This document shows positions 2,546 to 50,493 of a DNA stretch of 64,000 bases, one piece after another; position 1 is the first letter of the stretch, and each line of letters begins with the position of its first letter. Made by a program: the position numbers and the translations under genes. Location of the stretch: positions 14,006 to 78,005 of the forward strand of contig JAZQIZ010000027.1 in assembly GCA_045541395.1 (NCBI GenBank), in the 5' to 3' direction. The notes under the pieces are model-generated. The model worked only from the letters and a program-made list of their open reading frames with translations. It had not been told where the DNA came from and did no database searches. The DNA comes from Eubacteriales bacterium (GTDB lineage: Bacteria > Bacillota > Clostridia > Oscillospirales > UMGS1783).

Positions 2546-3414
2546 TATAAAACTCCCGTTAAATCAAATTCGGGTGTATATTCTTCTTTGGCAGAGGAAA
2601 GATCCTGAATATAGCCGTCGGTATACCCAAAAGCCTCAAGATAATCCAACACGGTATCATATTCTTCCTGTGTTATTCTTCTTGAAAGCTCTTTAAAGGG
2701 TGTTTCTATATAGGGGGTATACTGACTCATAAGAGAGAACTTTATTTTTTTACCCTCAAAGGTATTGGCAACCCAGTCTATTACCCGCAGGGAATTATCA
2801 ATAGCCTCAGGCAGAATAAGATGGCGGATAATAAGCCCTTTTTTCATTACCCCGTTTTCTATTTCGTAATCCCCTGCCAAATCGTACATTTTAAGTATGG
2901 CTTTTTTAGCCACCTCAAAGTAATCGGGGGCGGAGGAATATTTGAAAGCTAAAGAGTTATCGCTGTATTTTAAATCGGGCAGAAATATATTTACCTTGCC
3001 TCTTAAACGTTCAAGCTGTTCTTCTTTTTCATAGGCGGAGCTGTTCCATACAACGGGAATGCCCAAAGGCGCCTTTAATGATTCCAATATAGGTTCAATA
3101 AAATGAGTAGGCGTTACAAGGTTTATATTGTGAGCGCCTTTATTCTTAAGCATTTCGAATATCTCTCTCAGCCGCAAAGGAGAAACCTCAATTCCCGCGT
3201 TATTTCGGCTTATTTTATGGTTTTGACAATAAACACAACCAAGATTACAGCCCGAGAAAAACACCGTTCCTGAGCCGTTTTTTGCACTGATACAAGGCTC
3301 TTCCCAAAAGTGAAGAGCCGCTCTTGTTACGCAGGCGTTCAAGGGGCTTGAACAAAGCCCGTATTCTGTTCTTCGATCCACGTTGCAAAAACGAGGGCAT
3401 AAACTACATTCCAT
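2545..3414 (-). CDS. radical SAM protein, PflX/pyruvate-formate-lyase-activase-like (COG1313 type)
   Basis: 289 aa. Contains CNLGCVYCQN (CxxxCxxC) and an N-terminal Cys-rich stretch CSLCPRFCNVDRRTEYGLC. No Shine-Dalgarno sequence lies upstream. Confidence 0.75.
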   Translation of the reverse strand: MECSLCPRFCNVDRRTEYGLCSSPLNACVTRAALHFWEEPCISAKNGSGTVFFSGCNLGCVYCQNHKISRNNAGIEVSPLRLREIFEMLKNKGAHNINLVTPTHFIEPILESLKAPLGIPVVWNSSAYEKEEQLERLRGKVNIFLPDLKYSDNSLAFKYSSAPDYFEVAKKAILKMYDLAGDYEIENGVMKKGLIIRHLILPEAIDNSLRVIDWVANTFEGKKIKFSLMSQYTPYIETPFKELSRRITQEEYDTVLDYLEAFGYTDGYIQDLSSAKEEYTPEFDLTGVL

Positions 3415-3421
3415 AAGTAAT

Positions 3422-3450
3422 ATGATACTATCAAATTACCCTAAATGCAA
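3422..3450 (-). promoter_or_regulatory. candidate sigma-A-type promoter (TTGCAT-17-TATCAT) 7 nt upstream of the ATG at 3414
   Basis: Minus strand reads TTGCAT (3450-3445), a 17-nt spacer, TATCAT (3427-3422), ATTACTT, then ATG. No SD is present, so a leaderless start is possible. Confidence 0.3.
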
Positions 3451-3467
3451 GTTTATGCCCTTTATTT

Positions 3468-4556
3468 TTATTTAAAATATTCTACTGCTTTTGCATATAT
3501 CTCGTCAAGCGCAGTTAAGCTTTGCTCTCCCTCTCCCCCAAAATATACTACAGGGCTTTCCAGTGTGGTGCACCAGGACTCTTCACTACCGTTAAAAACC
3601 TTGCCGCTTATAAGATCGCCTAAGGCCTGCGCACTCTGTTCCCCTAACTGAACCCTAAGCGGATCTACTGCGCCGGCTATAGCGCCGCTTTGCAAAGCTT
3701 CGCTGATATTAGGATAATAGTTTCTTGCAACCACAATAAGATCATCTCTGCCGTTGGCCTCCTTTGCCGCAACCCAGGCTTCGTGCATTGATCCGAAAGC
3801 GCCCACCATATCGGGATATTCCTTTATATACTCTGTCATTTTCTGCGTTGCTTCCTGAACTTCCACCCCCTCAAACCTACCGGAACAAAGCGTATAGGGA
3901 GTATTAAGTTCTTTTATTCTTTCAGTAAAGTAATGACTTGAACCCATAGAGCCACCACTACCACCGACGTCTCCTCCCCAGCCTATGGCGCCTTCTTCTA
4001 TACCGTTTTCTATTAACCTATCTACCAGAAAATCAGCGGCCGCCTTGCCGTATTCTTCGTAGTAGTTCACAAAGCTTTTATCTATGAAATCCTTGGTATC
4101 CTTATATTTATGAGGGAAACAGGCTGTCACTACGTAAATTCCCTGCTTCTTTAATCCCTTCATCATTTCGTAGCAGGAATCGTCACCCACCCACATAAGC
4201 ACACCTGCAACAGAATTTTGGGCTATATCTCTTTCCCAAATGTCCATTATTTCTAGAATTGTATATGAACCGCCGACACTCGGACCGGAAACTATAGGCT
4301 TCATACCCAGTTCTTCTGCTTTGGTGAAAAAGCCGTACTGAACTACTCTGTGTACAGGGTGATCTATTGAACCCATACAGCAGGCTATTGTTTTACCCTG
4401 TGATGGTTCTTCCTGCTCACTGCTCTCGGAAACTTCAGGAACGCTACTTTCGGGAGTTTCAGGTGTGCTGCTTTCAGGAACCTCAGGCCCCTTTGCACAA
4501 CCGAAAAGAGCAAGTAACATTGTTAATGCAAGGGCTAAAGATAAAATCTTTTTCAT
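3468..4556 (-). CDS. lipoprotein, type-I periplasmic-binding-protein fold (sugar-ABC/LacI-like solute-binding protein), paralog 1
   Basis: I trimmed the track ORF (to 4637) to MKKILSLALALTMLLALFGC, which has a signal peptide and lipobox. AGGAG lies 8 nt upstream. Ser/Glu/Pro linker follows, then GKTIACCMGSIDHPVHRVVQYGF..KAEELGM, typical of the N-lobe of sugar-binding proteins. Confidence 0.75.
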   Translation of the reverse strand: MKKILSLALALTMLLALFGCAKGPEVPESSTPETPESSVPEVSESSEQEEPSQGKTIACCMGSIDHPVHRVVQYGFFTKAEELGMKPIVSGPSVGGSYTILEIMDIWERDIAQNSVAGVLMWVGDDSCYEMMKGLKKQGIYVVTACFPHKYKDTKDFIDKSFVNYYEEYGKAAADFLVDRLIENGIEEGAIGWGGDVGGSGGSMGSSHYFTERIKELNTPYTLCSGRFEGVEVQEATQKMTEYIKEYPDMVGAFGSMHEAWVAAKEANGRDDLIVVARNYYPNISEALQSGAIAGAVDPLRVQLGEQSAQALGDLISGKVFNGSEESWCTTLESPVVYFGGEGEQSLTALDEIYAKAVEYFK

Positions 4557-4560
4557 ACTA

Positions 4561-5628
4561 TCACTCCTTAAAATATTCCTGCGCGGCGTTATATATATCG
4601 CGGTAGGTTTGAATATCGTTTTTCCCTTCGCCCTCAAGAGTTGCTAAGGGGGCTTCTATAAATTCAAGCCAGGTATCTTCGCTGCTGTTAAATACTATTC
4701 CGTTTACAAGCTCATTCAAAGCAGTAGCACAAGCGGCACCCTCACCATACCAAGGTGTTGCAACTAATGCATCTATTTTGCCATTTAAAACGGTATTTAT
4801 ATTTGCTTCGGTACAATCCAGGCCTATAACTATAATATCCTCTCGGCCTGTATTGGCTCTTGCTTCAGTCCAAGACAAAGCAGAGTATCCTGTAAGGCCT
4901 ATTGCCGCAACCATATCGGGGTTGCTTTCTATATAGTCAGTTATTTGACTTGTTGCATAAGTAACTTCTCCGCCTTCCATTGCTGAACTCAAAACGGTGA
5001 AATTAGGGGCCTTCTCAGCCATAATTTCAATGAAATTATCCATAGCCACAATACCGGAAGGCACACCGGGCCCGCTAAACGAAATGCCTATGGAACCTTC
5101 GGTAATGCCCGACTCTGTCAGCTTATCCAAAATATAATCGACCATCTCAGCGCTGTATTGTTTTTCTGAATAAGCAATATTCTTATCAATAAAGCTTTTT
5201 GTATGCTCATAGCTATGTATATAATGAGGAACGACAGTGCAAACGCCTTGTTCTTTCAGTGTTTTCATCATTTCATAGCAGGAATCGTCGCCTGCCCAAA
5301 TCATGGCACCAACAGCATTGTTAGAAGCGATATCGCTGTTCCATTTATCTATAAGCTCCTGATATGAACCTTCATCAAGGCCGGATATTATAGGGTTCAT
5401 TCCAAGCTCTTGTGCTTTAGTGCAAAAGCCGTACTGAACTACTCTGTATATAGGATGAGCAAATGAACCCATACAGCAGGCTACGGTTTTACCCTGCGCC
5501 AAATTTTCCGATCCGTTGCTTTCGGAATTTTCGGGTGTACTGCTTTCGGGAGCCTCAGGCTCCTTTGCACAGCCGAAAACTCCTAAGGCAAGAATTAAGC
5601 ATAATATTAAACAGATAATTCTTTTCAT
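4561..5628 (-). CDS. lipoprotein solute-binding protein, paralog 2
   Basis: Start trimmed to ATG 5628 (MKRIICLILCLILALGVFGC, lipobox), with GGAGG 8 nt upstream. Same N-lobe motif as paralog 1. The N-terminal ~120 codons are nearly identical in DNA to paralog 3. Confidence 0.75.
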   Translation of the reverse strand: MKRIICLILCLILALGVFGCAKEPEAPESSTPENSESNGSENLAQGKTVACCMGSFAHPIYRVVQYGFCTKAQELGMNPIISGLDEGSYQELIDKWNSDIASNNAVGAMIWAGDDSCYEMMKTLKEQGVCTVVPHYIHSYEHTKSFIDKNIAYSEKQYSAEMVDYILDKLTESGITEGSIGISFSGPGVPSGIVAMDNFIEIMAEKAPNFTVLSSAMEGGEVTYATSQITDYIESNPDMVAAIGLTGYSALSWTEARANTGREDIIVIGLDCTEANINTVLNGKIDALVATPWYGEGAACATALNELVNGIVFNSSEDTWLEFIEAPLATLEGEGKNDIQTYRDIYNAAQEYFKE

Positions 5629-5632
5629 CACA

Positions 5633-6691
5633 TCATCCTCCAAAATATTTATTTGCAGTTTCCTTCAGCGCAATATATTCTTCCAGCTCCGATAAATCTA
5701 TTATTGACCCATTTAATTTTTCATTCCAGGTTGTTTTATTATTAAATTCCACCCCGTTTATTAACTCATACAGAGCAATTGCGGAACATTGACCACCTTC
5801 AAATATTGGTTCATACAAAACTTTATCAATTTCTTTAGATTTTAAGAGTTCAGAAATAGATTTTCCTTCCCTGACAGAAGATTTATCCTGTGCAATTATC
5901 AACATATCGTTGCTTGTCTGCATTCTCGCATTGACCCAGGCATTGGCGTCGGTATCTCCAAGGGCAACGACCGCTACAACAGGGCAACCAAGCTCTTTCT
6001 TATCATTTATAAAATTAACACATTTTTCGGTATCATCTGCAAGTGTGAGATGAGTTAAAAACATTTCCGCATCATACCCTGCCGCTTTAACTTGATCAAT
6101 TGCATTGTAAATATACCCGTTCATCTCCTGATTGGTGTGATGAGTAATAACTACAGTACCATTCGTTATATTATTTTCCACCAGACTGTCCACAATAAAC
6201 GTGGCTGTATCAACACCAAAATCACAATAATCATAATACGGGTTTTTATCTATGAATTTACAAGTACTTTCATAATTATGCGCAAAATACGGCACAACGG
6301 TATAAATCCCCTTCTCCTTCAATGCTTTCATCATTTCGTAGCAGGAATCGTCGCCTGTCCAAATCATGGCACCAACAGCATTGTTAGAAGCGATATCGCT
6401 GTTCCATTTATCTATAAGCTCCTGCATATTGCCTTCATCAAGACCGGATATTATAGGGTTCATTCCAAGCTCTTGTGCTTTAATACAAAATCCGTACTGA
6501 ACTACTCTGTGTACAGGATGAGTAAATGAACCCATACAGCAGGCTATTGTTTTGCCCTGCGCATAATCTTCGGAATCATTGCTTTCGGGAGTTTCGGGGG
6601 TACTGCTTTCAGGAACCTCAGGCTCCTTTGCACAGCCGAATATTCCTAAGGTAAGAATTAAGCATAATATTAAACAGATAATTCTTTTCAT
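5633..6691 (-). CDS. lipoprotein solute-binding protein, paralog 3 (divergent C-lobe)
   Basis: Start trimmed to ATG 6691 (MKRIICLILCLILTLGIFGC), with GGAG upstream. The N-terminal half resembles paralog 2. The C-terminal half is unrelated by eye. Confidence 0.75.
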   Translation of the reverse strand: MKRIICLILCLILTLGIFGCAKEPEVPESSTPETPESNDSEDYAQGKTIACCMGSFTHPVHRVVQYGFCIKAQELGMNPIISGLDEGNMQELIDKWNSDIASNNAVGAMIWTGDDSCYEMMKALKEKGIYTVVPYFAHNYESTCKFIDKNPYYDYCDFGVDTATFIVDSLVENNITNGTVVITHHTNQEMNGYIYNAIDQVKAAGYDAEMFLTHLTLADDTEKCVNFINDKKELGCPVVAVVALGDTDANAWVNARMQTSNDMLIIAQDKSSVREGKSISELLKSKEIDKVLYEPIFEGGQCSAIALYELINGVEFNNKTTWNEKLNGSIIDLSELEEYIALKETANKYFGG

Positions 6692-6723: not shown

Positions 6724-6752
6724 AGTTTAAATAAATACAACAGGCTTGTCAA
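6724..6752 (-). promoter_or_regulatory. candidate sigma-A promoter of the binding-protein genes (TTGACA-17-TAAACT)
   Basis: Minus strand has TTGACA (6752-6747), a 17-nt spacer and TAAACT (6729-6724), about 30 nt upstream of ATG 6691. Confidence 0.45.
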
Positions 6753-6793: not shown

Positions 6794-6831
6794 ACAAAAC
6801 GGTTACAAAACGGTTACAAAACGGTTACAAA
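6794..6831. repeat. perfect 11-bp tandem repeat ACAAAACGGTT x3 plus partial 4th copy
   Basis: Units at 6794-6804, 6805-6815 and 6816-6826, then ACAAA. Each unit carries the 7-mer palindrome AACGGTT. The repeat lies 42-80 bp upstream of the putative -35. Confidence 0.95.
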
Positions 6832-6832
6832 T

Positions 6833-6866
6833 AAAAAAACCAAACTTAAAAAAGTTTGGTTTTTTC
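6833..6866 (-). terminator. rho-independent terminator after the DD-carboxypeptidase gene
   Basis: 11-bp stem AAACCAAACTT/AAGTTTGGTTT (6837-6862) with a 4-nt loop. A-run and T-run flank it on both sides. Confidence 0.8.
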
Positions 6867-19901: not shown

Positions 19902-21725
19902 TTAACCCCAATTAATTTTTAAAGAGTTAAACTGCGCAGCCTCGTTCTGATCAACGTCGTTACCGGAAATATCAAGAGAGGTAAGAGAGGTAACACCCCT
20001 TAATGTCTTAATAGTATTAATATAGTTGTCTGCCGCGTTAAGCTCACTTATATAAGGAAGTTCTGCTACAGGTGAAAGACTGCTTATATTATTATCGGAA
20101 ACGTCAAGGCTTCTTAAAGAGGTGATCCTGCAAATGCTGGATATATCCTCAATACCGCAGCTTCTTGCAGTAAGAGAATTAAGGTTTGTACCGCTAAGAG
20201 GAGAGAAATCCTCAATAGCATTATTGGAGAGATCCAGTGAGCTGACAGACTTAGCGCTTGCGATACCGGTAATATCCGTAAGGGCATTTCCGGAAAGATC
20301 AAGAGTCCTTAAGGAAGTAAGGAAGGAAAGTCCGGAAGCGGATTCTATAGCATTATCCTTGGCAGTAAGGGTATCAAGCTTATTAAGCTTACCTATATCG
20401 CTCAGCCCTGAAATGTTATTTTCAGATACGTCAAGATTTCTTAAGGAGGTTATTTCGCCAATACCACCAAGAGTTTTAATGCCGTTATTTTTAATAACCA
20501 GCTTGGTGATCTTACCATCCTTTAAAGCGGCAAGGCTATCGGCGGAGCCGTTTTCTCCTCCCAGGTCATTATCGTTTAAGGTAAGAGTCATAAGGGAGGT
20601 CATAGGAGCAAGGGCCTCAACTGAAGTTAAAGAACACTCGGAAAGATCGAGGGTCGTCAAAGACACACATCCTGCGATCTGCTTAAGATTATCCTCGCTG
20701 AGCTCAACACGGTTAACGGTTAAGGATTTAAGCTTGGGCACTTGGTTCAGGGGGCTGTAATCGGCGATAGTATCACCGTAAAGCTCAACCTTTGAAAGAT
20801 TCAAAAATTCAGAAAAGTCAGCCAAAGTAGTGATCTTGCCGGAGCTGTTCTCGCTTGAGAAGCTTTCAAGCTCATCGAGATCCTTATAGGTCAGTTCCTC
20901 ATAAATGCCTAACGCATCACGGACAACACTTTCTACAGCCTCATCAACAAATTTATAAATAGCGTTTTCATCTCTTACTCTGAAATCTCCCGCCTGTTCA
21001 TCTGTAAGAATGCCGGTCTCGGAAATGGCAAAGGCACGGATAGAGCATTTATCAGTTATTTCAATAGGAGAAGAGAATACTTTGGAAGTAAGATTAGGTT
21101 CAGAACCGTCGGTCGTATAATAAATAACCGCATTGGAAGAGGATGAAAGTGAAAGGCTGATTTTCTCACCGTAGGTACCGGGCTGAGAGGAAAAACTGAT
21201 TTTTGAAGGTCTGCTGTTTTCCATTTTAAGAAGCACGTAATTATTGGTGCAGCCGGCGAGGAATTCTCTTGCTTCGGACATTTTGCCCTGATAACACAAA
21301 GCTCTTGAAGCAATACCGTAAAACTCGTAAGTTGCAGGGGATTTTTCTATACTTTCAATTGCAAAATCGTAAGCCTCTTCATAAAGACCCAGATTTTCAT
21401 ATGTTTCACAAAGAGCTATTCTTGAGCCAACGTGTTCGGAATCCTTTTCCAAAGCTTTAAGTAAATATTCCTTAGCTTCTTCATAATTCTGCGCCTGAAC
21501 AGCAGCAACTCCCTTTTCGTAAAATTTATCTGCATTGCCGGGCTCATTGCCTGTAATAAACATTACCATACCTATAATAAACCCAATAAGCACAGTAACA
21601 CTGAAGGTCATAAAGAAAAGACGCACACGGCTTTTAAATATTTCCGGGTTCTTTTTTTCCGCCTTTTTAGATTCCTCTATTACAGGTTCTTCGGTTTGAA
21701 TTATTTTATTTTCGTTATTTTCCAT
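19902..21725 (-). CDS. single-pass membrane protein with TPR, Fn3/CHB_HEX_C-like and ~12 leucine-rich repeats
   Basis: 607 aa. A TM helix spans about aa 38-58. TPR-like helices include YEEAKEYLLKALEKD. The segment GTYGEKISLSLSS..VIYYTTDGSEP is present. About 22-aa LxxLxLxxNxI repeats run to the C-terminus. Confidence 0.7.
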   Translation of the reverse strand: MENNENKIIQTEEPVIEESKKAEKKNPEIFKSRVRLFFMTFSVTVLIGFIIGMVMFITGNEPGNADKFYEKGVAAVQAQNYEEAKEYLLKALEKDSEHVGSRIALCETYENLGLYEEAYDFAIESIEKSPATYEFYGIASRALCYQGKMSEAREFLAGCTNNYVLLKMENSRPSKISFSSQPGTYGEKISLSLSSSSNAVIYYTTDGSEPNLTSKVFSSPIEITDKCSIRAFAISETGILTDEQAGDFRVRDENAIYKFVDEAVESVVRDALGIYEELTYKDLDELESFSSENSSGKITTLADFSEFLNLSKVELYGDTIADYSPLNQVPKLKSLTVNRVELSEDNLKQIAGCVSLTTLDLSECSLTSVEALAPMTSLMTLTLNDNDLGGENGSADSLAALKDGKITKLVIKNNGIKTLGGIGEITSLRNLDVSENNISGLSDIGKLNKLDTLTAKDNAIESASGLSFLTSLRTLDLSGNALTDITGIASAKSVSSLDLSNNAIEDFSPLSGTNLNSLTARSCGIEDISSICRITSLRSLDVSDNNISSLSPVAELPYISELNAADNYINTIKTLRGVTSLTSLDISGNDVDQNEAAQFNSLKINWG

Positions 21726-42512: not shown

Positions 42513-44450
42513 ATGAAAAAGTTCCTATCAGTTCTTTTGGTAGTCATTACTCTGCTGTCAATTATCCCCGGAACTATATTAAGCGTTTCTGCTGCAACAA
42601 TTGACAATGAAGCATTTAACGCTAAGATCACCGAACTTAAAAAAGTTTTCAGGGACGGTGAATATTGGAATGCATATAACTCGGTTAAATACGAAGGTAC
42701 CGGCACAAAAAAATGTCCCTGTACAGGATGCTGCAATAACTGCGCATGCAAATGCGGCCAGTTTTACTATGACGGCAAATGGTATGCAGGACAGTGCTAC
42801 GGCTGGGCACAGAAGATCGGCCATTTAATATTTGGCGGTATTCCCTCTCATGACTGGACTAAGCATTACAATGCAGCCAACCTGAAACCCGGCGACATTG
42901 TTCGAGGCGATTTATCTTCGTATAATAAATATTGGACTAACCACGCTATAATAGTTACTGCCGTTACCGGCAATAAAGTCACCTTTGCGGACTGCAACAG
43001 TTCAGGTGCTTGCCAGGTAAAATGGGGCAGAACCACAACAATTGCCGTAATTAAAGAAGCTGTAGCTGATAAAGGCGCTTTTATTCTCCATGCAAAAAAC
43101 AGCACTACCACAGCATCCGATGCCCCTGTAATTAAGTATTCCACCATTACTGCCGGTGAATATTATTTAAAGAACGTTGGCACCGGAAAATATCTTACGG
43201 TTGACGGCGGCAAAGACGTTAATAAAACAAACGTAAAGGTTGCAGCTAAGGCAGAAACAAAAGCCTTTAAAATGAAAATAACCGCCGCAACTACAGGCTA
43301 TAAAATAAGACCTCTTTGCTGTGCTTCCCGCCTTGTGAATCCTTTTGCAGATATTGTATCAAACGGAGTAAACGTTAATATTTATACAGACTCAAAGGAT
43401 CCCTCGCAGTGGTGGCGCTTTGAAAAGACAGACAAGGGTTATATAATACATAACACCCAAAACCCCGACTGTGTGCTTACTGCCAACAGCAGTAATAACG
43501 TATTGGTTTCAACCAATAAGAAGACTGACAGTCAAATATGGATACTGGAATGTGTAGGCGAACACAATTACAAAACAACCACCACCAAGGCTACAGCAGA
43601 CGCCAACGGTAAAAAGGTAACAGCCTGTACGCTGTGCGGGAAAGTTAAAACCACCACCGTTATTTACAAACCCGAAACCTTTACTCTTTCGGCCACCTCT
43701 TACAAATATAGCGGAAGCGCTAAGAAGCCCACTGTTACAGTTAAGGATTCTCAGGGCAACACTCTTATTAAGGACACCGATTACACTCTTACCTACGCAA
43801 CAGGCAGAGTTAAGCCGGGCAAATATAAGATAACAGTTAATTTTACCGGCAAATACAGCGGTTCCAAGCAATTATTCTTTAATATCAAGCCCCTTGCTCC
43901 CGCTAAAGTAAACGTTGCAAGCCGAAGCACAAGCTACATTAAGCTTTCCTGGCCTGAGGCTGTAGGCGCTACCGGCTACAGAATTTATAAATACGATTCT
44001 GCAACCGGCACCTATAAGACGGTTGCAACAACAACTAACCTTTCTTATACTATCAAGAGCCTTAGCTCTGCAACCAATTATAAATTTGCAATTAAGTCTT
44101 ATACCGAGCTTTCTGACGGCAGCCGTATCTGGAGCGGCAGAAGAGCAATAACAACCTCAAGCCGCCCCATTGCTCCTCTTATCAATTCTGCAGTCTCCTA
44201 CGGCAAAGGTAAAATAACAATTAAATGGAACGACGTTGCAAGAGAAAGCGGCTACAAGATTTATTACAGCACTACCGCAAACGGAACTTACAAGTTACTG
44301 CGCACTCTTAATCCCAACGACGTATCGGAAACCTGCACAGGCCTTACAAGTGGGAAGACCTATTACTTTAAAGTAAGAGCATTCAAGACCGTTAACGGCA
44401 CCAAGATATATAGCTCCTACAGCCCCGCAAAGGCCGCTAAAATTAAGTAA
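42513..44450 (+). CDS. secreted multidomain protein: Cys-rich papain-like (CHAP/NlpC-P60-type) domain, ricin-B lectin, Ig-like, two FN3 domains
   Basis: 645 aa with a signal peptide. GQCYGWAQ (Cys), NHAIIV (His) and DCN are present. QxW motifs are SQWWRF and SQIWIL. The FN3-like repeats have a W..V.GATGYRIY pattern. Confidence 0.65.
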   Translation: MKKFLSVLLVVITLLSIIPGTILSVSAATIDNEAFNAKITELKKVFRDGEYWNAYNSVKYEGTGTKKCPCTGCCNNCACKCGQFYYDGKWYAGQCYGWAQKIGHLIFGGIPSHDWTKHYNAANLKPGDIVRGDLSSYNKYWTNHAIIVTAVTGNKVTFADCNSSGACQVKWGRTTTIAVIKEAVADKGAFILHAKNSTTTASDAPVIKYSTITAGEYYLKNVGTGKYLTVDGGKDVNKTNVKVAAKAETKAFKMKITAATTGYKIRPLCCASRLVNPFADIVSNGVNVNIYTDSKDPSQWWRFEKTDKGYIIHNTQNPDCVLTANSSNNVLVSTNKKTDSQIWILECVGEHNYKTTTTKATADANGKKVTACTLCGKVKTTTVIYKPETFTLSATSYKYSGSAKKPTVTVKDSQGNTLIKDTDYTLTYATGRVKPGKYKITVNFTGKYSGSKQLFFNIKPLAPAKVNVASRSTSYIKLSWPEAVGATGYRIYKYDSATGTYKTVATTTNLSYTIKSLSSATNYKFAIKSYTELSDGSRIWSGRRAITTSSRPIAPLINSAVSYGKGKITIKWNDVARESGYKIYYSTTANGTYKLLRTLNPNDVSETCTGLTSGKTYYFKVRAFKTVNGTKIYSSYSPAKAAKIK

Positions 44451-44841: not shown

Positions 44842-45513
44842 TCAGTTATGCTTCTTTTTGTAAATCAAAAATGCGCTTAATGCACTTACCAAAAGAACCA
44901 GGATCACAGGAAGAAGAATCATATTATCGCCTGTAAAAATATTTTCTTCCTTCTCGCTTTCAGGTTTATCCTCTTCTTCGGGATCGGGCTCAGGAACTAC
45001 CGTTTCGTCGGATAAGGTTATAGGCTCAATTTTAACCGCAAGATCATTTGCAACAGACTCAAAGGCCTGACCTTCGGGAGCATCCAAAGAAAGAGATTCA
45101 ACGGTAAAATCAAACTTAGGATCAGCTTCCTTTAAAACCTTAAACTCAACGGTGTAAATAACACCTTTTTTAAGGTCAACGCCTTCTGTGGCGGTACCAC
45201 CGTAATTGGCATAGCCTTCGGTGTTATTGCCTGCACAGAGCATTGTGAAGCCTTCAAATACCTCTTTGCCTTCAATATTATAGTTTCCGTTTTCCTTAAC
45301 TATTTCAAGAACCTCAGGGTCAAACTTTAAGGAGAAGGAACCGTTTATTGCATTTTCAATTTCGGTTTCAAGGCAAATATCAACCAAAACGGTTTCGCCT
45401 TCTTTTGCGTCAAAGCCTTTAACAACAATATCAGCATCGGCAGCGCAAACGCCCACAGCCAAGGAGAATGCCATTACAAGAATTAAAACTATAGAAATTA
45501 TACGTTTTTTCAT
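44842..45513 (-). CDS. single-cohesin-domain surface protein with C-terminal sorting-signal-like anchor
   Basis: 223 aa with a signal peptide. A ~140-aa cohesin-like beta-sandwich (VVKGFDAKEGETVLVDICLE..NGSFSLKFDPEVLEI) is followed by a Pro/Glu linker, NIFTG, a hydrophobic helix and KKKHN. SD GGAGGA lies 13 nt after the upstream stop. Confidence 0.7.
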   Translation of the reverse strand: MKKRIISIVLILVMAFSLAVGVCAADADIVVKGFDAKEGETVLVDICLETEIENAINGSFSLKFDPEVLEIVKENGNYNIEGKEVFEGFTMLCAGNNTEGYANYGGTATEGVDLKKGVIYTVEFKVLKEADPKFDFTVESLSLDAPEGQAFESVANDLAVKIEPITLSDETVVPEPDPEEEDKPESEKEENIFTGDNMILLPVILVLLVSALSAFLIYKKKHN

Positions 45514-45526
45514 TTTTCCATCCTCC

Positions 45527-48500
45527 TTATATTAAGCCTTCGGATCTGAGCCAATCAAGAAGCTCGTTTGCATAAACCTCATTATCTTCCACACGGGGAT
45601 GACCGGGATGAGAAAGTGTTCTTTCCATATGGAAGTATACGTTAAGATCACCGTCCTCATTTCTAACGGTATTAACCGCCTCTTCTATAAGATCAGAGGG
45701 GCTGGTAATTATAATGCCGTAGGTACATACAATAGGAGCGTTGGGATAACGTTCCCTTAAATATCTTAACAATTCAACGTAAGAATCAACAAAGGCTTTC
45801 TTTCTTACGGGGTTTGCACCGATATAGTCGTTATCGTTAGTACCTAAGTTAATTATAATAAGATCGGTACGGGTATTGTCAAGGCCAAGCTCGCCTTCAT
45901 AACCCCAGAACAAGTCGGTATATCTGTAACGTGCGGTTATATTTCTGCCTACCTGAACGTCTCTTCTTACAGGACCCGCAGATTCGTTACAAGCAGCGCC
46001 GGAATTTGCGAATACGGTAAAGTCGGCATCCAGCTTTCTTGCAAGCATAGCATAAGCGGTATTGTAAGAGTTTTCTTCTTTCAGAACATAAGGACCTTCA
46101 TACAGGCCGGGGGTTTCATTATACATACCGGCGGAAATAGAGTCACCTATTATCTGAATACCAATATCCTTTCGGGAATTGGGAGCAAGCAGCTGACCGT
46201 CAACCTTAATGCCGCTGATAAGAGCAGAGGAATATGCGGTCTGATTCTGCTTAAGGATCTTAACGGTATGTTCACCTTCTTCAAGGCCTTCGGCTAAGGT
46301 ATACCATGCCTTGGAGCCTGTAAGGGTGAGTACCTTGGAGGGAGTATCTTCACCGTCAACGAATACCTGAATTAAGGGATAGGTTGAATTATCAAAAATA
46401 GTATTGCCTATAAGCTCAACCTGAGCCTTGGTGCCCTTGAAGTTAAATTCAACACCGGAGCAGCTCCAGTTAAAGTTATAGCCTTTAAGGGTTTCGTTGT
46501 AATAAGTTCTGCCTATGTGACGAACGTTATTCTGTGTTACGGTTATAACGCCCTGCTCGTTGGCTGTAAGTTCTTCCTCGGTAGGATCAACCTCGGGAGC
46601 AAGGGACATCTCGGGAGCGGTAAGCTCCTTGCCCTGCGCTAAAGCTTTAGCTAAAACAGTGGCGTCATCCATTGTAATACCGGCTACACCGTCAAGCTCG
46701 GCTACTGCAAGGCCGCCTTCGGCAACAACGGTGTTTTCTTCTTTAATGAGATAATTAATAAGAAGAATAAGGTCATCGTCATCAACGTCACCGTCGCAAT
46801 CAATATCACCGTATTTGCTTATAAATAAAACATTATAAGAAAAGTCCTTATCAAGATAGGAGCATTCCACCTCATACTCGGTGCCGCCTGTAATATTTGC
46901 AGGGAAGCCGGAGGTTATCATAGAAACCTTAAGAAGCTCAGTTGCAACAGGCTTATCCTCAACGGTATCACCGCCTAAGATTATTGCTATCTCACCGCCG
47001 GAGGTAACGAAATGATCATCACTTAAGCTGTATTCGGTTTTAGGAAGCTTGGAAATTTCAATACTGTCTACAGAATAATAAACTATAGGGAGAACAAATT
47101 CATTGCCTTTGTAGGTACAAATGATTTCCTGTACAGTATCGGGGTTTTCGGTAGAAACATAGTACTTGCCGTTTCCATCCGGATTAAGGTTAATGCCAAC
47201 GGACTTTAAGTTGGGCTCGATAATATAATTATCATCACCGTTTGCCTTTAATTTTAAACCGGTAAGGTCAAGCTCGGTATTCTCGCCGTAATAAAGCTTT
47301 GAGGGCATCTGTTCTACTTCAAGGGAAAGGATCTCGCCGCGGCTATCCACAAGATCGCCGTTAAGAACGCTTACGCCGTAGAAATAGAATTCTTCGTTAT
47401 TACCGATAACATTATCGCCGTTGGTAATGGTAACCTTATGATCTCCTTCGCTGAGGCCGGTTACGGAATACACGGCGTAATCTGCAACAACACCTTCAAC
47501 CACCATTTCCATAGGAACGGGATCAGAGCCGTCAATGCTGATATAAGCAACGTCGTTATTATAAATTATCCAGCCGCCTTTTCCGTCAGACTGAACGTTT
47601 ACCATTGCATAAACCTTGAAGCCGTCACCGTCAACGTTGAAGGTAACTTTATCGCCTCTTGCTACAGCTCTCATATAAGGAGAAAGCTGGCCCCAGTTGC
47701 CTGTATATTCATAATCGGGATGAATAACACCCTTATCGTCTACAGCGCGGATAATGTCGCTCCACTGAGGGGGCTCGAGCATATAGCCACCGCTTGAAAG
47801 CTGAACGCCGTGGAAGAAGAACTGAGCGCCCCACTGGCTTTCTCTGCCGCGGTTTTCTATTGTTACGGTATGTCTGCCTTCTTCAAGGCCCTTTGCTTCG
47901 TAAACGATAGCAGCTGTACCGGGAGTTGCTTCAACCCACATATCGGCCTTTACAAACTCGCCGCCGTCAAGGCTTACGTAAACCTCATCATTGTTCCAGG
48001 ACTGGCCGTTCTGAACGTTAACACAAGCAATCAGACGAACGCCTGTACCGTAAAAAGCAAAGTCACATACGCCGCCTGCTGCGCCGGAATGCATATATTT
48101 TGTAATACCGTCACCAAAGATATTCCATGCAACGCCGGTAAATGCAAAGGCAGTGGAGGGAACGTCATTTTTATCAACTGCAACAATTTCCTCATCCCAG
48201 CTTACAACAGGCTGTACGGAGCCGTTTTCAACACTTACGCTGTTCAGATAGAAACTGTTTGAAATAGCGGGAGCGCTATACTGGCCGCAGGTTATAACCG
48301 CAGTATGGTCACCTGCAGTAAGGCCCGTAATTTCAAATACGTCCTGATGCGCAATGGTGTGGGTCTCGGCTACCATATTAAGAGGCATTGCCTCTCCACC
48401 GTCGATGCTTATCTTCACGTCATTATTAACACAAGAGTCAAGAACACCGTCACCGGTAACGTCCTGTGTATTAACGAATGCGTTTACTTTAAGGCCTGTA

Positions 48501-49213
48501 CCGTTAAACTTAAAGGAAACTTTTTCACCGTTAAGCCAGCATTCATAGGAATTGCCTGTCCATACGTCGGAAGGATTAAGCACTCTCCAGTTAACAGAAA
48601 AGTCAAACTTTTCGGTATCGGGATTTTGGGAGGAATTAAGTACCTTGTATACGGACCAATTTGAGGTATGCCCCATCTTGCCGTTAAGAATACTTACACT
48701 GTTTAAATAAAAGCTGTTTGAAATGGCGGGAGCGCTGTACTGGCCGCAGGTTATAACCGCAGTATGGTCACCTGCAGTAAGGCCCGTAATTTCAAATACG
48801 TCCTGATGAGCAATGGTGGTGGTCTCGGCTACCATATTAAGAGGTAACGCTTCACCGCCGTCTATGCTTATCTTTACGTCATTATTAACACAAGAGTCAA
48901 GAACACCGTCACCGGTAACGTCCTGTGTATTAACGAATGCGTTTACTTTAAGGCCTGTACCGTTAAACTTAAAGGATACTTTTTCGCCGTTAAGCCAGCA
49001 TTCATAGGAATCACCTGTCCAAACATCTGAAGGATTAAGAACGCGCCAGAGGCTTGACCAAGTAAAATTCTCGGTATCGGGGGCCTTGGTGGCAGTATCG
49101 GCAATAACCTTATACTCTGTCCACTGATCAGCCGCCATAACCGGCATTATACCCAGCATAAGTATTGCAACCAAAGTTAGTGCAAGTACTCTGAGGGCGG
49201 AACGTTTTTTCAT
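45527..49213 (-). CDS. secreted dockerin-containing carbohydrate esterase (CE2-like jelly-roll + SGNH/GDSL hydrolase) with four N-terminal beta-sandwich modules and Ig-like domains
   Basis: 1228 aa with a signal peptide. The SGNH blocks are IIGDSISAG, an NSG-containing Gly block, INLGTNDN and a C-terminal HP. A CE2_N-like segment (HIGRTYY..NFNWSCSGVEFNFKGT) is present. Confidence 0.75.
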   Translation of the reverse strand: MKKRSALRVLALTLVAILMLGIMPVMAADQWTEYKVIADTATKAPDTENFTWSSLWRVLNPSDVWTGDSYECWLNGEKVSFKFNGTGLKVNAFVNTQDVTGDGVLDSCVNNDVKISIDGGEALPLNMVAETTTIAHQDVFEITGLTAGDHTAVITCGQYSAPAISNSFYLNSVSILNGKMGHTSNWSVYKVLNSSQNPDTEKFDFSVNWRVLNPSDVWTGNSYECWLNGEKVSFKFNGTGLKVNAFVNTQDVTGDGVLDSCVNNDVKISIDGGEAMPLNMVAETHTIAHQDVFEITGLTAGDHTAVITCGQYSAPAISNSFYLNSVSVENGSVQPVVSWDEEIVAVDKNDVPSTAFAFTGVAWNIFGDGITKYMHSGAAGGVCDFAFYGTGVRLIACVNVQNGQSWNNDEVYVSLDGGEFVKADMWVEATPGTAAIVYEAKGLEEGRHTVTIENRGRESQWGAQFFFHGVQLSSGGYMLEPPQWSDIIRAVDDKGVIHPDYEYTGNWGQLSPYMRAVARGDKVTFNVDGDGFKVYAMVNVQSDGKGGWIIYNNDVAYISIDGSDPVPMEMVVEGVVADYAVYSVTGLSEGDHKVTITNGDNVIGNNEEFYFYGVSVLNGDLVDSRGEILSLEVEQMPSKLYYGENTELDLTGLKLKANGDDNYIIEPNLKSVGINLNPDGNGKYYVSTENPDTVQEIICTYKGNEFVLPIVYYSVDSIEISKLPKTEYSLSDDHFVTSGGEIAIILGGDTVEDKPVATELLKVSMITSGFPANITGGTEYEVECSYLDKDFSYNVLFISKYGDIDCDGDVDDDDLILLINYLIKEENTVVAEGGLAVAELDGVAGITMDDATVLAKALAQGKELTAPEMSLAPEVDPTEEELTANEQGVITVTQNNVRHIGRTYYNETLKGYNFNWSCSGVEFNFKGTKAQVELIGNTIFDNSTYPLIQVFVDGEDTPSKVLTLTGSKAWYTLAEGLEEGEHTVKILKQNQTAYSSALISGIKVDGQLLAPNSRKDIGIQIIGDSISAGMYNETPGLYEGPYVLKEENSYNTAYAMLARKLDADFTVFANSGAACNESAGPVRRDVQVGRNITARYRYTDLFWGYEGELGLDNTRTDLIIINLGTNDNDYIGANPVRKKAFVDSYVELLRYLRERYPNAPIVCTYGIIITSPSDLIEEAVNTVRNEDGDLNVYFHMERTLSHPGHPRVEDNEVYANELLDWLRSEGLI
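46631..46819 (-). other. type-I-like dockerin module inside the esterase
   Basis: The first F-hand is complete: YGDIDCDGDVDDDDLILLINYL. The second is less canonical: ELDGVAGITMDDATVLAKAL. Confidence 0.7.
48233..49048. repeat. in-frame 459-bp tandem duplication (two ~153-aa modules) within the esterase gene
   Basis: The cores at 48233-48589 and 48692-49048 encode 119 aa with only 3 substitutions. Two more diverged copies follow downstream in the protein. Confidence 0.9.
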
Positions 49214-49305: not shown

Positions 49306-49431
49306 TTCTACCTTTTGCACAAAAAATGCCTGATCTGAATTTTTTATTTTAGGTGTTTTTGCATATATGAAAAGGACTTATTTGACAAAGTTATTCGAAA
49401 TATGTTAGTATTAATAGAAGAGGTGGTTTTT

Positions 49432-50493
49432 ATGGAGAAGCTTTTTTCTGTGGAAAGCATAGAATCGGGCAAGGTCACAATTAAAGATATTGCAAAAATA
49501 GCCAACGTTTCGGCAACTGCTGTCAGTAACGCTTTGTCGGGCAAGCCAAATATAAGCGCCAAAATGAGAGAGCTCATTATGCAAACGGCTGAGGAACTTG
49601 GCTACACCCCGAATCTTACAGCCCGTTCTCTTAACAGGAGCAATATCCGCATCGCTCTGATTTTACCGGATAACCCCACTGAGATCTCACAGCAGTACAT
49701 AAATGGGATGAAGAAGGCTATCAAAAGTTATTCAGGCGCTAAGCTTGAATGTGATATTATAACCTATGCCACCACCGACGATCACGCACGTCATGCTCTT
49801 TTGCATATTGCGGAAAATCCTTACGATGGAATTATTATTTCATTTCCCAACATTCATGAATACAAACATAAGGATATTTTTAAAAAGATCAACGAAAAGA
49901 ATATTCCCGTTATTTCTATAGTTGACGCTCTCAGTGAGTTAAATACCTGCGCAAATGTAATGGTTGACGCCAAAACGGGCGGCGCCTTAGCAGCAGATAT
50001 TATAGGAAACTGTATAGGTGAAGAATCCTGCGCTGTATTTACGGCAGTCAACCCCTTGCAGATCGTACATAAAAGCTACATTGAGGGCTTCAAGGAAGAG
50101 CTTAAATTTTACAACACAAAAATAAGCGAGATCTTTTATTCTACCGACGTAAACAACACCGCCTACTCCAGAGCTAAGGACTGTTTTTCTCAGAAAAACC
50201 CGCCTAAAGCCGCATTTGCAACCTGCTATAACGCCTTTGAAATATGCAATGCTTTAAAGGAGCTCGGCCTGGACAGAAGTATTAAGGTAGTTGGAGTGGA
50301 CACCACAGATAAAAACTACACCTGTCTTTCTAACGGAAGCCTTACTGCAACCATATATCAGAGGCAGGATGAGCAAATAAGAAGAGCATTTTTAACGCTT
50401 ATTGATTGTATTCTTACCAATAACGCCGAGCGCAGAGAAAACATTCTTGTTACGCCTAATATTATTACCAAAAGCAGAGCCGGTCATAAATAA
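49432..50493 (+). CDS. LacI-family transcriptional regulator
   Basis: Start trimmed to ATG 49432 (MEKLFSV), with GAGGTG upstream. Contains the HTH TIKDIAKIANVSATAVSNALSG and a periplasmic-binding-protein-like effector domain. Confidence 0.85.
   Translation: MEKLFSVESIESGKVTIKDIAKIANVSATAVSNALSGKPNISAKMRELIMQTAEELGYTPNLTARSLNRSNIRIALILPDNPTEISQQYINGMKKAIKSYSGAKLECDIITYATTDDHARHALLHIAENPYDGIIISFPNIHEYKHKDIFKKINEKNIPVISIVDALSELNTCANVMVDAKTGGALAADIIGNCIGEESCAVFTAVNPLQIVHKSYIEGFKEELKFYNTKISEIFYSTDVNNTAYSRAKDCFSQKNPPKAAFATCYNAFEICNALKELGLDRSIKVVGVDTTDKNYTCLSNGSLTATIYQRQDEQIRRAFLTLIDCILTNNAERRENILVTPNIITKSRAGHK

What the first reader, a model, noticed from the sequence alone, without database searches (positions are those of the whole stretch)
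3468..6691. Three tandem orphan lipoprotein binding proteins: shared N-lobe, swapped C-lobes, no transporter genes
Three consecutive genes, separated by 4-5 nt, encode lipobox-bearing proteins of the type-I periplasmic-binding fold. All carry the same N-terminal half: a Ser/Glu/Pro linker, GKT[IV]ACCMGS..HP..RVVQYGF..KA.ELGM, and DDSCYEMMK. After about residue 150 the three sequences diverge strongly; paralog 3 is unalignable by eye with paralog 2 there. No permease or ATPase gene is adjacent. The nearest ABC system, potABCD, is unrelated and about 46 kb away. The pattern suggests a family of ligand-capture or sensor lipoproteins with a constant membrane-proximal lobe and variable specificity. 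It could also be a variable surface lipoprotein family.
Basis: seen in the sequence. Interest (0 to 1): 0.6.

Follow-up and report, generated by a model that had tools for sequence, protein, structure and literature searches.

The report
Tandem orphan sugar-binding lipoproteins, mosaic paralogs
Three back-to-back genes encode membrane-anchored nutrient-capture proteins from a rare family in uncultured gut-type Clostridia; they keep one half nearly constant (partly by copying it between neighbours) while the other half diverges fast, and they most likely feed a shared importer encoded elsewhere in the genome.

Summary
Window 3468-6691 (minus strand) carries three co-oriented lipoprotein genes separated by 4 nt. 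All three have the type I periplasmic-binding fold, closest to ribose-type (CUT2) sugar binders. No matching permease or ATPase lies in the 64 kb.

The mosaic is real. P1 and P2 differ at 9% of nucleotides up to codon 123 and at 55% after it. Synonymous sites show the same jump, so this is a gene-conversion or partial-duplication tract, not selection alone.

The C-lobes are not foreign domains. They are old, fast-diverging types of the same fold.

"No transporter" is true only locally. In three related MAGs that carry such arrays, a slowly evolving family member sits in a conserved operon: gdh, SBP, double-NBD ATPase, two BPD_transp_2 permeases.

Best reading (about 0.55): these are accessory binding proteins docking on one shared CUT2 importer, with a constant N-lobe half-site and a variable C-lobe half-site. 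This resembles the Borrelia bmp cluster.

The ligand, and the transporter in this particular genome, remain unproven. I rate it a new variant of a known kind, of moderate interest.

The parts
5633..6691 (-). P1: lipoprotein substrate-binding protein, 352 aa, C-lobe type A (the most divergent paralog)
   Evidence: ORF and translation. Pfam Peripla_BP_4 scores only 18 bits, below the 35.1-bit cut-off. AF2 pLDDT is 90.1 with the full PBP-I secondary-structure order. Foldseek top hits are GanP, AraP, CbpA and RbsB over about 300 columns. Identical to database protein P0021.
4561..5628 (-). P2: lipoprotein substrate-binding protein, 355 aa, C-lobe type B
   Evidence: Pfam Peripla_BP_4 at 70.5 bits, residues 52-310. 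AF2 pLDDT 91.8. Foldseek matches CUT2 sugar SBPs at E about 1e-16 and about 15% identity.
3468..4556 (-). P3: lipoprotein substrate-binding protein, 362 aa, C-lobe type C, with a longer Ser/Glu/Pro linker
   Evidence: Pfam Peripla_BP_4 at 44.5 bits, residues 58-319. Identical to P0091. 42% identical to P2 and 39% to P1.
6323..6691 (-). P1 copy of the homogenised tract (codons 1-123: signal peptide, linker and N-lobe through GDDSCYEMMK)
   Evidence: About 91% nucleotide identity to the P2 copy. The tract starts at the ATG, and the breakpoint is at residue 123. pS is 0.15-0.23, against 0.6 or more downstream.
5260..5628 (-). P2 copy of the homogenised tract (codons 1-123)
   Evidence: Same evidence as for the P1 copy.
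6632..6691 (-). P1 signal peptide with lipobox (…LGIFG-C20). Equivalent stretches are P2 5569-5628 and P3 4497-4556.
   Evidence: Read directly from the sequence and alignment. C20 is invariant in 31 family members. No signal-peptide predictor was available.
6724..6752 (-). Sigma-70-like promoter TTGACA-17-TAAACT, the only good match upstream of the three genes
   Evidence: Consensus scan, 10 of 12 matches. The 4-nt gaps and embedded ribosome-binding sites suggest one operon. This is an inference; no expression data exist.
6794..6831 (.). 3.5 perfect tandem copies of an 11-nt unit (TTTGTAACCGT on the gene strand), between the dacB terminator and the promoter; a candidate regulator-binding site
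   Evidence: TRF reports period 11 and 100% matches. Two degenerate copies lie at the syntenic position in L002. Function untested.
6834..6865 (-). Terminator hairpin of the upstream dacB-like gene, which separates the array from upstream transcription
   Evidence: Perfect 14-nt inverted repeat with a 4-nt loop, followed by a T run on the gene strand.

Best explanation
P1, P2 and P3 are lipid-anchored, extracytoplasmic substrate-binding proteins of a small, unnamed subfamily of ribose-type (CUT2, Peripla_BP_4) sugar binders. They have no translocator of their own. They most likely act as accessory receptors that hand ligands to one shared CUT2 ABC importer encoded elsewhere. In relatives that importer is the operon gdh, core SBP, fused double-NBD ATPase and two BPD_transp_2 permeases.

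The N-lobe segment (residues about 47-150) is kept nearly constant. It carries the conserved half of the ligand site: His58, His61 and His138 sit at the positions of RbsB Asn13, Phe16 and Asp89. It presumably also carries part of the docking surface. The C-lobe segment holds the other half-site, at the positions of RbsB R141, F164, N190, D215 and Q235. It differs among the three proteins and evolves fast, giving each paralog a different, probably related, sugar-like ligand.

Two processes together produce the mosaic. One is stronger purifying selection on the N-lobe. The other is recurrent gene conversion between tandem neighbours, with tracts that often end near codon 120-125.

Shown: fold, lipobox, operon layout, mosaic, conversion tract, and linkage of paralogs to the transporter in relatives. 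Inferred: use of the shared transporter by the orphans, the half-site logic, and the class of ligand.
For: Fold and family:
- Pfam matches.
- A family profile hits RbsB-type structures in the PDB (2ioy, E = 9e-13).
- AF2 plus Foldseek for P2 and P1.

Transporter link:
- Family members at 43-48% identity to P2 lie directly upstream of a 515-518-aa double ABC_tran ATPase and two BPD_transp_2 permeases, in L005, L010, L011 and L012.
- L011 and L012 come from the same MAGs as the orphan arrays L004/L001 and L002. L005 comes from the same MAG as array L006.
- L002 is syntenic with the window, in the order rpsO, pnp, M16, dacB, array, radical SAM. PNPase is 96.6% identical.

Asymmetry specific to the orphans:
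- Core SBP orthologs are evenly conserved (N 0.95-0.98, C 0.89-0.94).
- Orphans compared with the core give N 0.45-0.69 and C 0.22-0.58.
- The N-lobe stays 76-88% identical even where pS is saturated, for example in L003 pairs.

Conversion:
- P1/P2 breakpoint at residue 123, p = 2e-8 at synonymous sites.
- Comparable low-pS tracts occur in L006, L003, L004 and L002.
- N-lobe and C-lobe trees disagree. C-lobe types A, B and C are shared between the window and L002, yet the P1 and P2 N-lobes are sisters.

Half-site mapping rests on the HMM alignment to T. tengcongensis RBP and the family alignment.

Precedent: the Borrelia bmp tandem lipoprotein SBPs are proposed to use the distant BB0677-0679 ATPase and two permeases (PMC7093131).
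Against: - The transporter operon was not found for the window's own genome. Its other contigs could not be fetched (look-ups returned nothing).
- P0005, a fourth paralog on the same 127-kb contig, is only about 60% identical to core SBPs and its context is unknown.
- No co-regulation evidence exists.
- Within MAG CALKPL01, the array N-lobes (L006) are only 45-61% identical to the N-lobe of the transporter-linked L005 protein, and they fall in a different N-lobe clade. Homogenisation therefore acts among array members and does not extend to the core SBP.
- Conversion tracts also cover the signal peptide and linker, and in L004 the 3' tail. They may be a neutral by-product of tandem arrangement rather than selected.
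- His- and Cys-rich site residues are unusual for sugar binders, so the ligand class is uncertain.
- No coordinates were available to map conservation onto the surface versus the cleft.
Confidence: 0.55

Rival explanations
1. Sensor co-receptors. The orphans bind sugars and signal through a membrane histidine kinase or other transducer, as the lipoproteins AraP and GanP of Geobacillus or XylFII-LytS of Clostridium do, rather than delivering substrate for transport.
For: AraP (6sw4), GanP (6gq0) and XylFII (5xss, 5xsj) are among the best structural matches of both P1 and P2. The orphans have no adjacent transporter. That these three proteins act as sensors is from my own knowledge of the literature; it was not retrieved here (one search found nothing useful).
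Against: Known three-component sensor SBPs are encoded next to their kinase and regulator. No kinase, response regulator or chemoreceptor gene lies next to the array in the window, among the 46 ORFs scanned against Pfam. None lies next to arrays L002, L003 and L004 or singleton L001 in the called-gene tables; only four flanking ORFs of L006 were scanned. The structural matches are equally good to true transport SBPs such as RbsB and CbpA. Family members are demonstrably transporter-linked.
Confidence: 0.15
2. Variable surface lipoproteins. The binding fold has been co-opted as an exposed, rapidly diversifying surface protein (adhesin, glycan tether or phage/immune target), with a constant membrane-proximal part and a variable exposed part. 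Gene conversion and gene fragments supply the variation.
For: Orphans evolve very fast relative to their flanks. Same-type orthologs in the window and L002 are 25-35% identical in the C-lobe, while PNPase is 96.6% and DacB 77% identical. Arrays of 3 to 7 or more copies contain truncated copies, such as the 196-aa and 99-aa ORFs in L006 and L003. Gene order is permuted, A-B-C in the window against C-B-A in L002. Conversion tracts recur.
Against: The array has none of the usual switching devices: no invertible promoter repeats and no homopolymer or short-repeat tracts in the genes. All three genes sit behind one promoter and appear co-expressed. The ligand-site positions of the N-lobe are invariant across the family, which is what a working binding site would show. 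C-lobe types persist across genomes instead of being scrambled.
Confidence: 0.12
3. Decaying duplicates. The orphans are redundant copies of the core SBP under relaxed selection. The mosaic would then simply reflect slower decay of the structurally critical N-terminal core plus neutral gene conversion.
For: The C-lobe and tail are weakly conserved. P1 no longer reaches the Pfam threshold. Truncated copies exist in other arrays.
Against: All three ORFs are intact and have ribosome-binding sites. AF2 gives confident, complete folds. Within the conversion tract pN is below pS (0.06 against 0.15). The three C-lobe types have been kept as separate intact lineages since the split of the window and L002 genomes, and also appear in other metagenomic relatives.
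Confidence: 0.08

Closest known systems
Ribose-type (CUT2, TC 3.A.1.2) sugar-binding proteins: RbsB, AlsB, C. thermocellum CbpA (Pfam Peripla_BP_4)
   Same: Both have the two-lobe type I fold with the same secondary-structure order. The best sequence and structure matches are to this group. Family members are encoded with a fused double-NBD ATPase and BPD_transp_2 permeases. JGI labels two family members 'ribose transport system substrate-binding protein'.
   Different: Identity to any solved structure is only about 15%. The N-lobe site residues are His/His/His plus an invariant Cys, where RbsB has Asn/Phe/Asp. The three window genes are orphan and tandem. The family is tiny: 89 clusters among 5.8 billion proteins, and 5 loci in 3 of 185,579 species genomes.
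Borrelia burgdorferi bmp cluster (BmpB/A/C/D, BB0382-BB0385)
   Same: Both are tandem paralogous lipoproteins of the type I binding fold with no adjacent permease. The bmp proteins are proposed to serve a distant ABC system made of one ATPase and two permeases, BB0677-0679 (PMC7093131). Paralogs differ in ligand specificity: purine nucleosides for BmpD, thymidine for BmpA (abstracts listed).
   Different: The Bmp proteins belong to the PnrA/TmpC-type nucleoside-receptor family described in PMC7093131, whereas the window proteins match Peripla_BP_4. The paper passages read here did not describe an N-lobe-constant, C-lobe-variable mosaic or conversion tracts. The host is a spirochete with a periplasm.
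Lineage-specific expansions of orphan solute-binding proteins (TTT/TctC 'Bug' family in Bordetella and Rhodoplanes)
   Same: Many paralogous binding proteins against few membrane components, and mostly unknown ligands (PMC5994714 and PMC11452294, abstracts).
   Different: A different transporter class (secondary TTT, not ABC) and a different protein family, in proteobacteria. From the abstracts read, these are expansions counted across the whole genome rather than tight co-transcribed arrays.
Three-component sugar sensors (AraP-AraST and GanP-GanST of Geobacillus; XylFII-LytS-YesN)
   Same: Lipoprotein or anchored CUT2-like binders without their own transporter, and close structural neighbours.
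   Different: Those genes sit beside a kinase and regulator pair. Nothing of the kind lies next to these arrays in the loci with gene calls or Pfam scans.

Membership tests
Pfam Peripla_BP_4 / type I periplasmic-binding fold | Sequence score above the Pfam gathering threshold (35.1 bits) | tested here: met
   P2 scores 70.5 bits and P3 44.5 bits, both full length. P1 alone fails at 18.1 bits, so for P1 this row is not met by sequence.
Pfam Peripla_BP_4 / type I periplasmic-binding fold | Two alpha/beta lobes joined by crossovers, superimposable on solved members | tested here: met
   AF2 models of P2 (pLDDT 91.8) and P1 (90.1). Foldseek against the PDB gives E of 1e-13 to 1e-16 and target-normalised TM of 0.7-0.86 over about 300 columns to RbsB, AraP, GanP and CbpA. 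P3 was not modelled.
CUT2 ABC importer substrate-binding component | Encoded with, or shown to serve, a double-NBD ATPase and BPD_transp_2 permease(s) | tested here: not met
   No such genes are in the 64-kb window or beside arrays L002, L003, L004 and L006. The feature is met for paralogous core members in L005, L010, L011 and L012. Functional coupling of the orphans is an inference.
CUT2 ABC importer substrate-binding component | Binds a sugar or sugar-like ligand in the inter-lobe cleft | not testable with these tools
   Only an alignment-based mapping of RbsB site positions is available. The Asp equivalent to RbsB D215 is kept in P1 and P2 and is Asn in P3.
Bacterial lipoprotein (Lgt/LspA substrate) | N-terminal signal peptide ending in a lipobox with an invariant Cys | tested here: met
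   The N-termini read MKR/K, then a hydrophobic stretch, then (L/I/V)FG-C20. C20 is invariant in 31 sequences. This is pattern inspection only; no dedicated predictor was run.
Three-component sensor SBP (AraP/GanP/XylFII type) | Gene adjacent to its partner histidine kinase and response regulator | tested here: not met
   No HK, RR or MCP domains were found among the 46 window ORFs scanned against Pfam or in the called genes of L001-L004.
Phase- or antigen-variable lipoprotein system | A switching device: invertible promoter, slippage-prone repeat in the gene or promoter, or an expression site with silent cassettes | tested here: not met
   No simple-sequence tract lies in the genes and no inverted repeats bracket the promoter. 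The only tandem repeat is the 11-nt x 3.5 array upstream of -35. Truncated copies exist in other arrays, but all three window genes are complete and share one promoter.

The most novel reading that the evidence does not exclude
The arrays are a built-in specificity-diversification system. A repertoire of receptors shares a constant N-lobe, kept uniform within each genome by gene conversion whose tracts repeatedly end just after the GDDSCYEMMK motif. This keeps every copy compatible with a single membrane partner and with a common ligand moiety bound by the invariant His/His/His/Cys half-site. The C-lobe half-site is free to explore new ligands. That would be a constant-region/variable-region design for nutrient receptors in Gram-positive anaerobes.
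Probability: 0.2. Interest if true: 0.65.

Novelty: new variant of a known kind. Interest (0 to 1): 0.42.

Why it matters
Orphan binding proteins are common in genome annotations and rarely explained. This case offers a compact, testable example. It has a rare family with a single conserved transporter operon and arrays of 3 to 7 or more fast-evolving accessory receptors. It also has a clear lobe-wise split between what is conserved and what varies.

If the shared-transporter model holds, it shows how uncultured fibrolytic Clostridia could widen their substrate range without duplicating membrane machinery. The window also encodes cohesin and CE2 esterase proteins, which suggests that lifestyle. 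The model would also give a natural experiment on which SBP lobe carries docking and which carries specificity determinants.

The invariant His/Cys half-site hints at a ligand class that is not typical for ribose-type binders.

Tried and rejected
- Fetching the window's own genome by exact-protein look-up of P2, P0001, P0005, P0021 and P0042 returned nothing. The presence of the core transporter in this genome therefore stays open. P0042, a permease 83% identical to the one in L012 and sitting on an unindexed 430-kb NCBI contig, is a candidate only.
- I tested whether P1's C-half was imported from another binding-protein family. It was not: exhaustive phmmer found only 6 weak or family hits.
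- I looked for a riboswitch or other known RNA upstream of the array and upstream of the core operon in L010, hoping it would reveal the ligand. None was found.
- I looked for the 11-nt repeat motif upstream of other arrays. Only degenerate copies occur in syntenic L002, plus a single inverted 8-mer near L003/L006, which is compatible with chance.
- The LuxS gene after array L004 suggested AI-2 binding (LsrB/LuxP type). LsrB and LuxP match the family profile far more weakly (E of 1e-5 to 1e-3) than RbsB does (1e-12), and the adjacency occurs at one locus only. I did not pursue it.
- Two literature searches for orphan tandem SBPs and for AraP/GanP returned mostly irrelevant papers.
Full report
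**What is there**

On the minus strand the window carries three complete ORFs:
- P1, 5633-6691, 352 aa
- P2, 4561-5628, 355 aa
- P3, 3468-4556, 362 aa

Each stop codon is followed 4 nt later by the next ATG. A GGAGG-type ribosome-binding site lies inside the last codons of the upstream gene.

Upstream of P1 the features run in this order:
- the terminator hairpin of a dacB-like gene (6834-6865)
- 3.5 perfect copies of an 11-nt unit (6794-6831)
- the only strong sigma-70-like promoter, TTGACA-17-TAAACT (6724-6752)

The three genes therefore look like one operon. The flanking genes are housekeeping: rpsO, pnp, an M16 peptidase and dacB upstream, and two radical-SAM genes downstream.

Each protein starts with a signal peptide ending in (L/I/V)FG-C20, followed by a disordered Ser/Glu/Pro linker (pLDDT below 50 at residues 19-39) and then the folded domain.

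**Fold**

P2 and P3 match Pfam Peripla_BP_4 end to end. P1 does not reach threshold. A profile of 31 family members finds ribose-binding proteins as the best solved relatives (2ioy, E = 9e-13).

AlphaFold models are confident: P2 at pLDDT 91.8 and P1 at 90.1. Both show the same succession of beta-alpha units. Both match the same CUT2 sugar binders over about 300 columns at about 15% identity, namely GanP, AraP, CbpA, RbsB and Thermotoga glucose-binding protein.

P1's divergent C-half is therefore a homologous lobe and not a foreign domain. An exhaustive phmmer of P1 residues 151-352 against 1.84 billion representatives found only six hits. The significant ones were an ortholog fragment and a family member at 31% identity.

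**The mosaic**

Overall identities are 49% for P1/P2, 39% for P1/P3 and 42% for P2/P3. The identity is very uneven along the sequence.

For P1 versus P2:

| Measure | Up to about codon 123 | After codon 123 |
|---|---|---|
| Nucleotide identity | about 91%, starting at the ATG | about 45-50% |
| Mismatch, either side of the max-chi-square breakpoint (residue 123) | 9.3% | 55% |
| Synonymous differences at codons with identical amino acids | 13/108 | 31/58 (p = 2e-8) |
| dS | 0.1-0.2 (0.56 in the linker, codons 31-60) | saturated |

This is the signature of gene conversion or partial duplication, not of purifying selection alone. P3 shares the N-half at 57-65% identity, with pS of 0.50-0.68 against 0.69-1.22 downstream.

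**The family elsewhere**

The family is rare. There are 33 clusters from a single-sequence search and 89 from a profile search of 5.8 billion proteins. There are five loci in three uncultured Clostridia or Eubacteriales MAGs among 185,579 species genomes.

It nearly always occurs in tandem arrays:

| Locus | Copies |
|---|---|
| L002 (syntenic; PNPase 96.6% identical to the window's) | 3 |
| L004 | 3 |
| L003 | 6, plus a fragment |
| L006 | at least 6 full-length, plus two fragments |
| L007 | 5 within 4.3 kb |

No array has an adjacent permease or ATPase.

The same two-layer pattern recurs in these arrays.
- The N-lobe segment stays 76-88% identical even where synonymous sites are saturated, for example in L003 pairs with pS of 0.62-0.68. 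This indicates genuine constraint.
- On top of that, patches of low pS mark conversion tracts. Examples are L006_6666/8828 at codons 1-120 (pS 0.04-0.10) and L003_13916/15035/16133 at codons 47-120. Others are the L004 3' tails and the L002 signal-peptide and linker region.
- Several tracts end at about codon 120-125, just after the invariant GDDSCYEMMK motif.

Neighbour-joining trees of the two segments disagree. By C-lobe, P1, P2 and P3 belong to three old types (A, B, C), each with a counterpart in L002 and in other metagenomic sequences. By N-lobe, P1 and P2 are sisters. Gene order is A-B-C in the window and C-B-A in L002, relative to the same flanking genes.

**The transporter**

In L005 and L010, a family member at 43-48% identity to P2 sits between a glutamate dehydrogenase gene and three transporter genes. 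These are a 515-aa double ABC_tran ATPase and two BPD_transp_2 permeases.

Searching with the L010 permease recovered the same operon in GCA_054296225.1 (L011) and GCA_054285345.1 (L012). These are the very MAGs that carry arrays L004/L001 and L002. L005 is from the same MAG as array L006.

These core SBPs carry the family motifs. They are 85-90% identical among L010, L011 and L012, and they are evenly conserved across lobes (N 0.95-0.98, C 0.89-0.94). Orphans compared with the core give N 0.45-0.69 and C 0.22-0.58.

Orphans of the same C-lobe type in the window and L002 share only 25-35% identity in the C-lobe, although the flanking DacB is 77% identical. The orphans are thus a fast-evolving offshoot of a slowly evolving, transporter-linked SBP.

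I could not fetch the rest of the window's genome. Two leads remain:
- A fourth paralog, P0005, lies on the same 127-kb contig outside the window.
- An orthologous permease, P0042, is 83% identical to L012's and sits on an unindexed NCBI contig. It may or may not belong to this genome.

**Site mapping (inference)**

This mapping uses the HMM alignment to T. tengcongensis RBP.

N-lobe positions:
- RbsB Asn13, Phe16 and Asp89 correspond to His58, His61 (Tyr in P2) and His138.
- Cys52 and Asp114/Asp115 are invariant nearby.

C-lobe positions:
- The positions equivalent to RbsB R141, F164, N190 and Q235 differ among P1, P2 and P3.
- The position equivalent to D215 is Asp, Asp and Asn in P1, P2 and P3.

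This fits a constant half-site paired with a variable half-site. The His/Cys character leaves the ligand class open.

**Interpretation**

The best-supported model (about 0.55) is that the orphans are accessory lipoprotein SBPs delivering different, related ligands to the one shared CUT2 importer. The documented parallel is the Borrelia bmp cluster. There, four tandem paralogous lipoprotein SBPs are proposed to use the distant BB0677-0679 ATPase and two permeases (PMC7093131). Orphan SBP expansions are also known in the TTT/Bug family (PMC5994714).

Weaknesses of the model:
- It is not shown for this genome.
- There are no co-regulation data.
- In CALKPL01 the array N-lobes are not especially close to the core SBP's N-lobe.
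- Conversion tracts also include functionally neutral linker sequence, so homogenisation may be a by-product of tandem arrangement.

Rival explanations:
- Sensor co-receptors like AraP, GanP or XylFII (0.15). They are structurally close, but no adjacent kinase was found anywhere examined.
- Diversifying surface lipoproteins (0.12). The fast evolution, gene fragments and order permutation fit, but there is no switching device and the site residues are invariant.
- Decaying duplicates (0.08). The ORFs are intact, the predicted folds are confident, and the C-lobe types persist across genomes.

**Verdict**

This is an ordinary class of protein in an uncommon arrangement: a new, rare subfamily and a new variant of the known pattern in which several orphan SBPs serve one transporter. 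The well-documented N-lobe conversion mosaic is its most interesting feature.

Noticed in passing
window 6794-6831: 3.5 perfect tandem copies of an 11-nt unit (TTTGTAACCGT on the gene strand) lie between the dacB terminator and the array promoter. The period is about one helical turn, which suggests a binding site for a repeat-recognising regulator. Two degenerate copies sit at the syntenic spot in L002.
   Followed up: partly
window 44842-45513 and 45527-49213: A cohesin-domain protein lies next to a 1228-aa protein with CE2_N and GDSL esterase domains. This suggests a cellulosome-like, plant-fibre-degrading organism.
   Followed up: no
window 19902-21725 and 42513-44450: Two further probable surface or secreted proteins. 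One has LRR and CHB_HEX_C domains; the other has ricin-type lectin and fn3 domains.
   Followed up: no
window 49402-50493: A LacI-family regulator, whose effector domain is also Peripla_BP_4, lies about 43 kb from the array. No link to the array was tested.
   Followed up: no
L004 13183-13638; L001 7868-9910: In GCA_054296225.1 the three-gene array is followed directly by luxS. A singleton family member follows a GH36 alpha-galactosidase gene. Both are possible hints to ligand class (AI-2-like or galactoside), each seen once only.
   Followed up: partly
L006 9995-10585 and 12674-12973; L003 12359-12949: Truncated family ORFs lie inside arrays: one of 196 aa lacking the N-lobe, and one of 99 aa that is a C-terminal tail only. 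They look like remnants of unequal crossing-over or decaying copies.
   Followed up: no
window array versus L002 7893-11071: The order of C-lobe types is A-B-C in the window and C-B-A in the syntenic array, with all genes in the same orientation relative to dacB and the radical-SAM genes. The array has therefore been re-ordered, not inverted.
   Followed up: partly
window 4561-5628 (P2): P1 and P3 are in the protein collection as P0021 and P0091, both on a 127,349-bp NCBI contig. The exact P2 sequence is not found, although it lies between them. The reason is unknown; it could be a gene-calling or collection gap.
   Followed up: no
P0034 (2901 aa): A very long protein matched P1 residues about 302-325 (the NGVEFN…TW region) in 13 separate stretches at E = 3.6e-8. 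It is probably a repeat protein sharing a short motif.
   Followed up: no
window 3387-3405 / 3450-3468: A 19-nt inverted repeat (84% complementary, arms 44 nt apart) spans the P3 stop codon and the start of the downstream radical-SAM gene. Its role is unknown.
   Followed up: no
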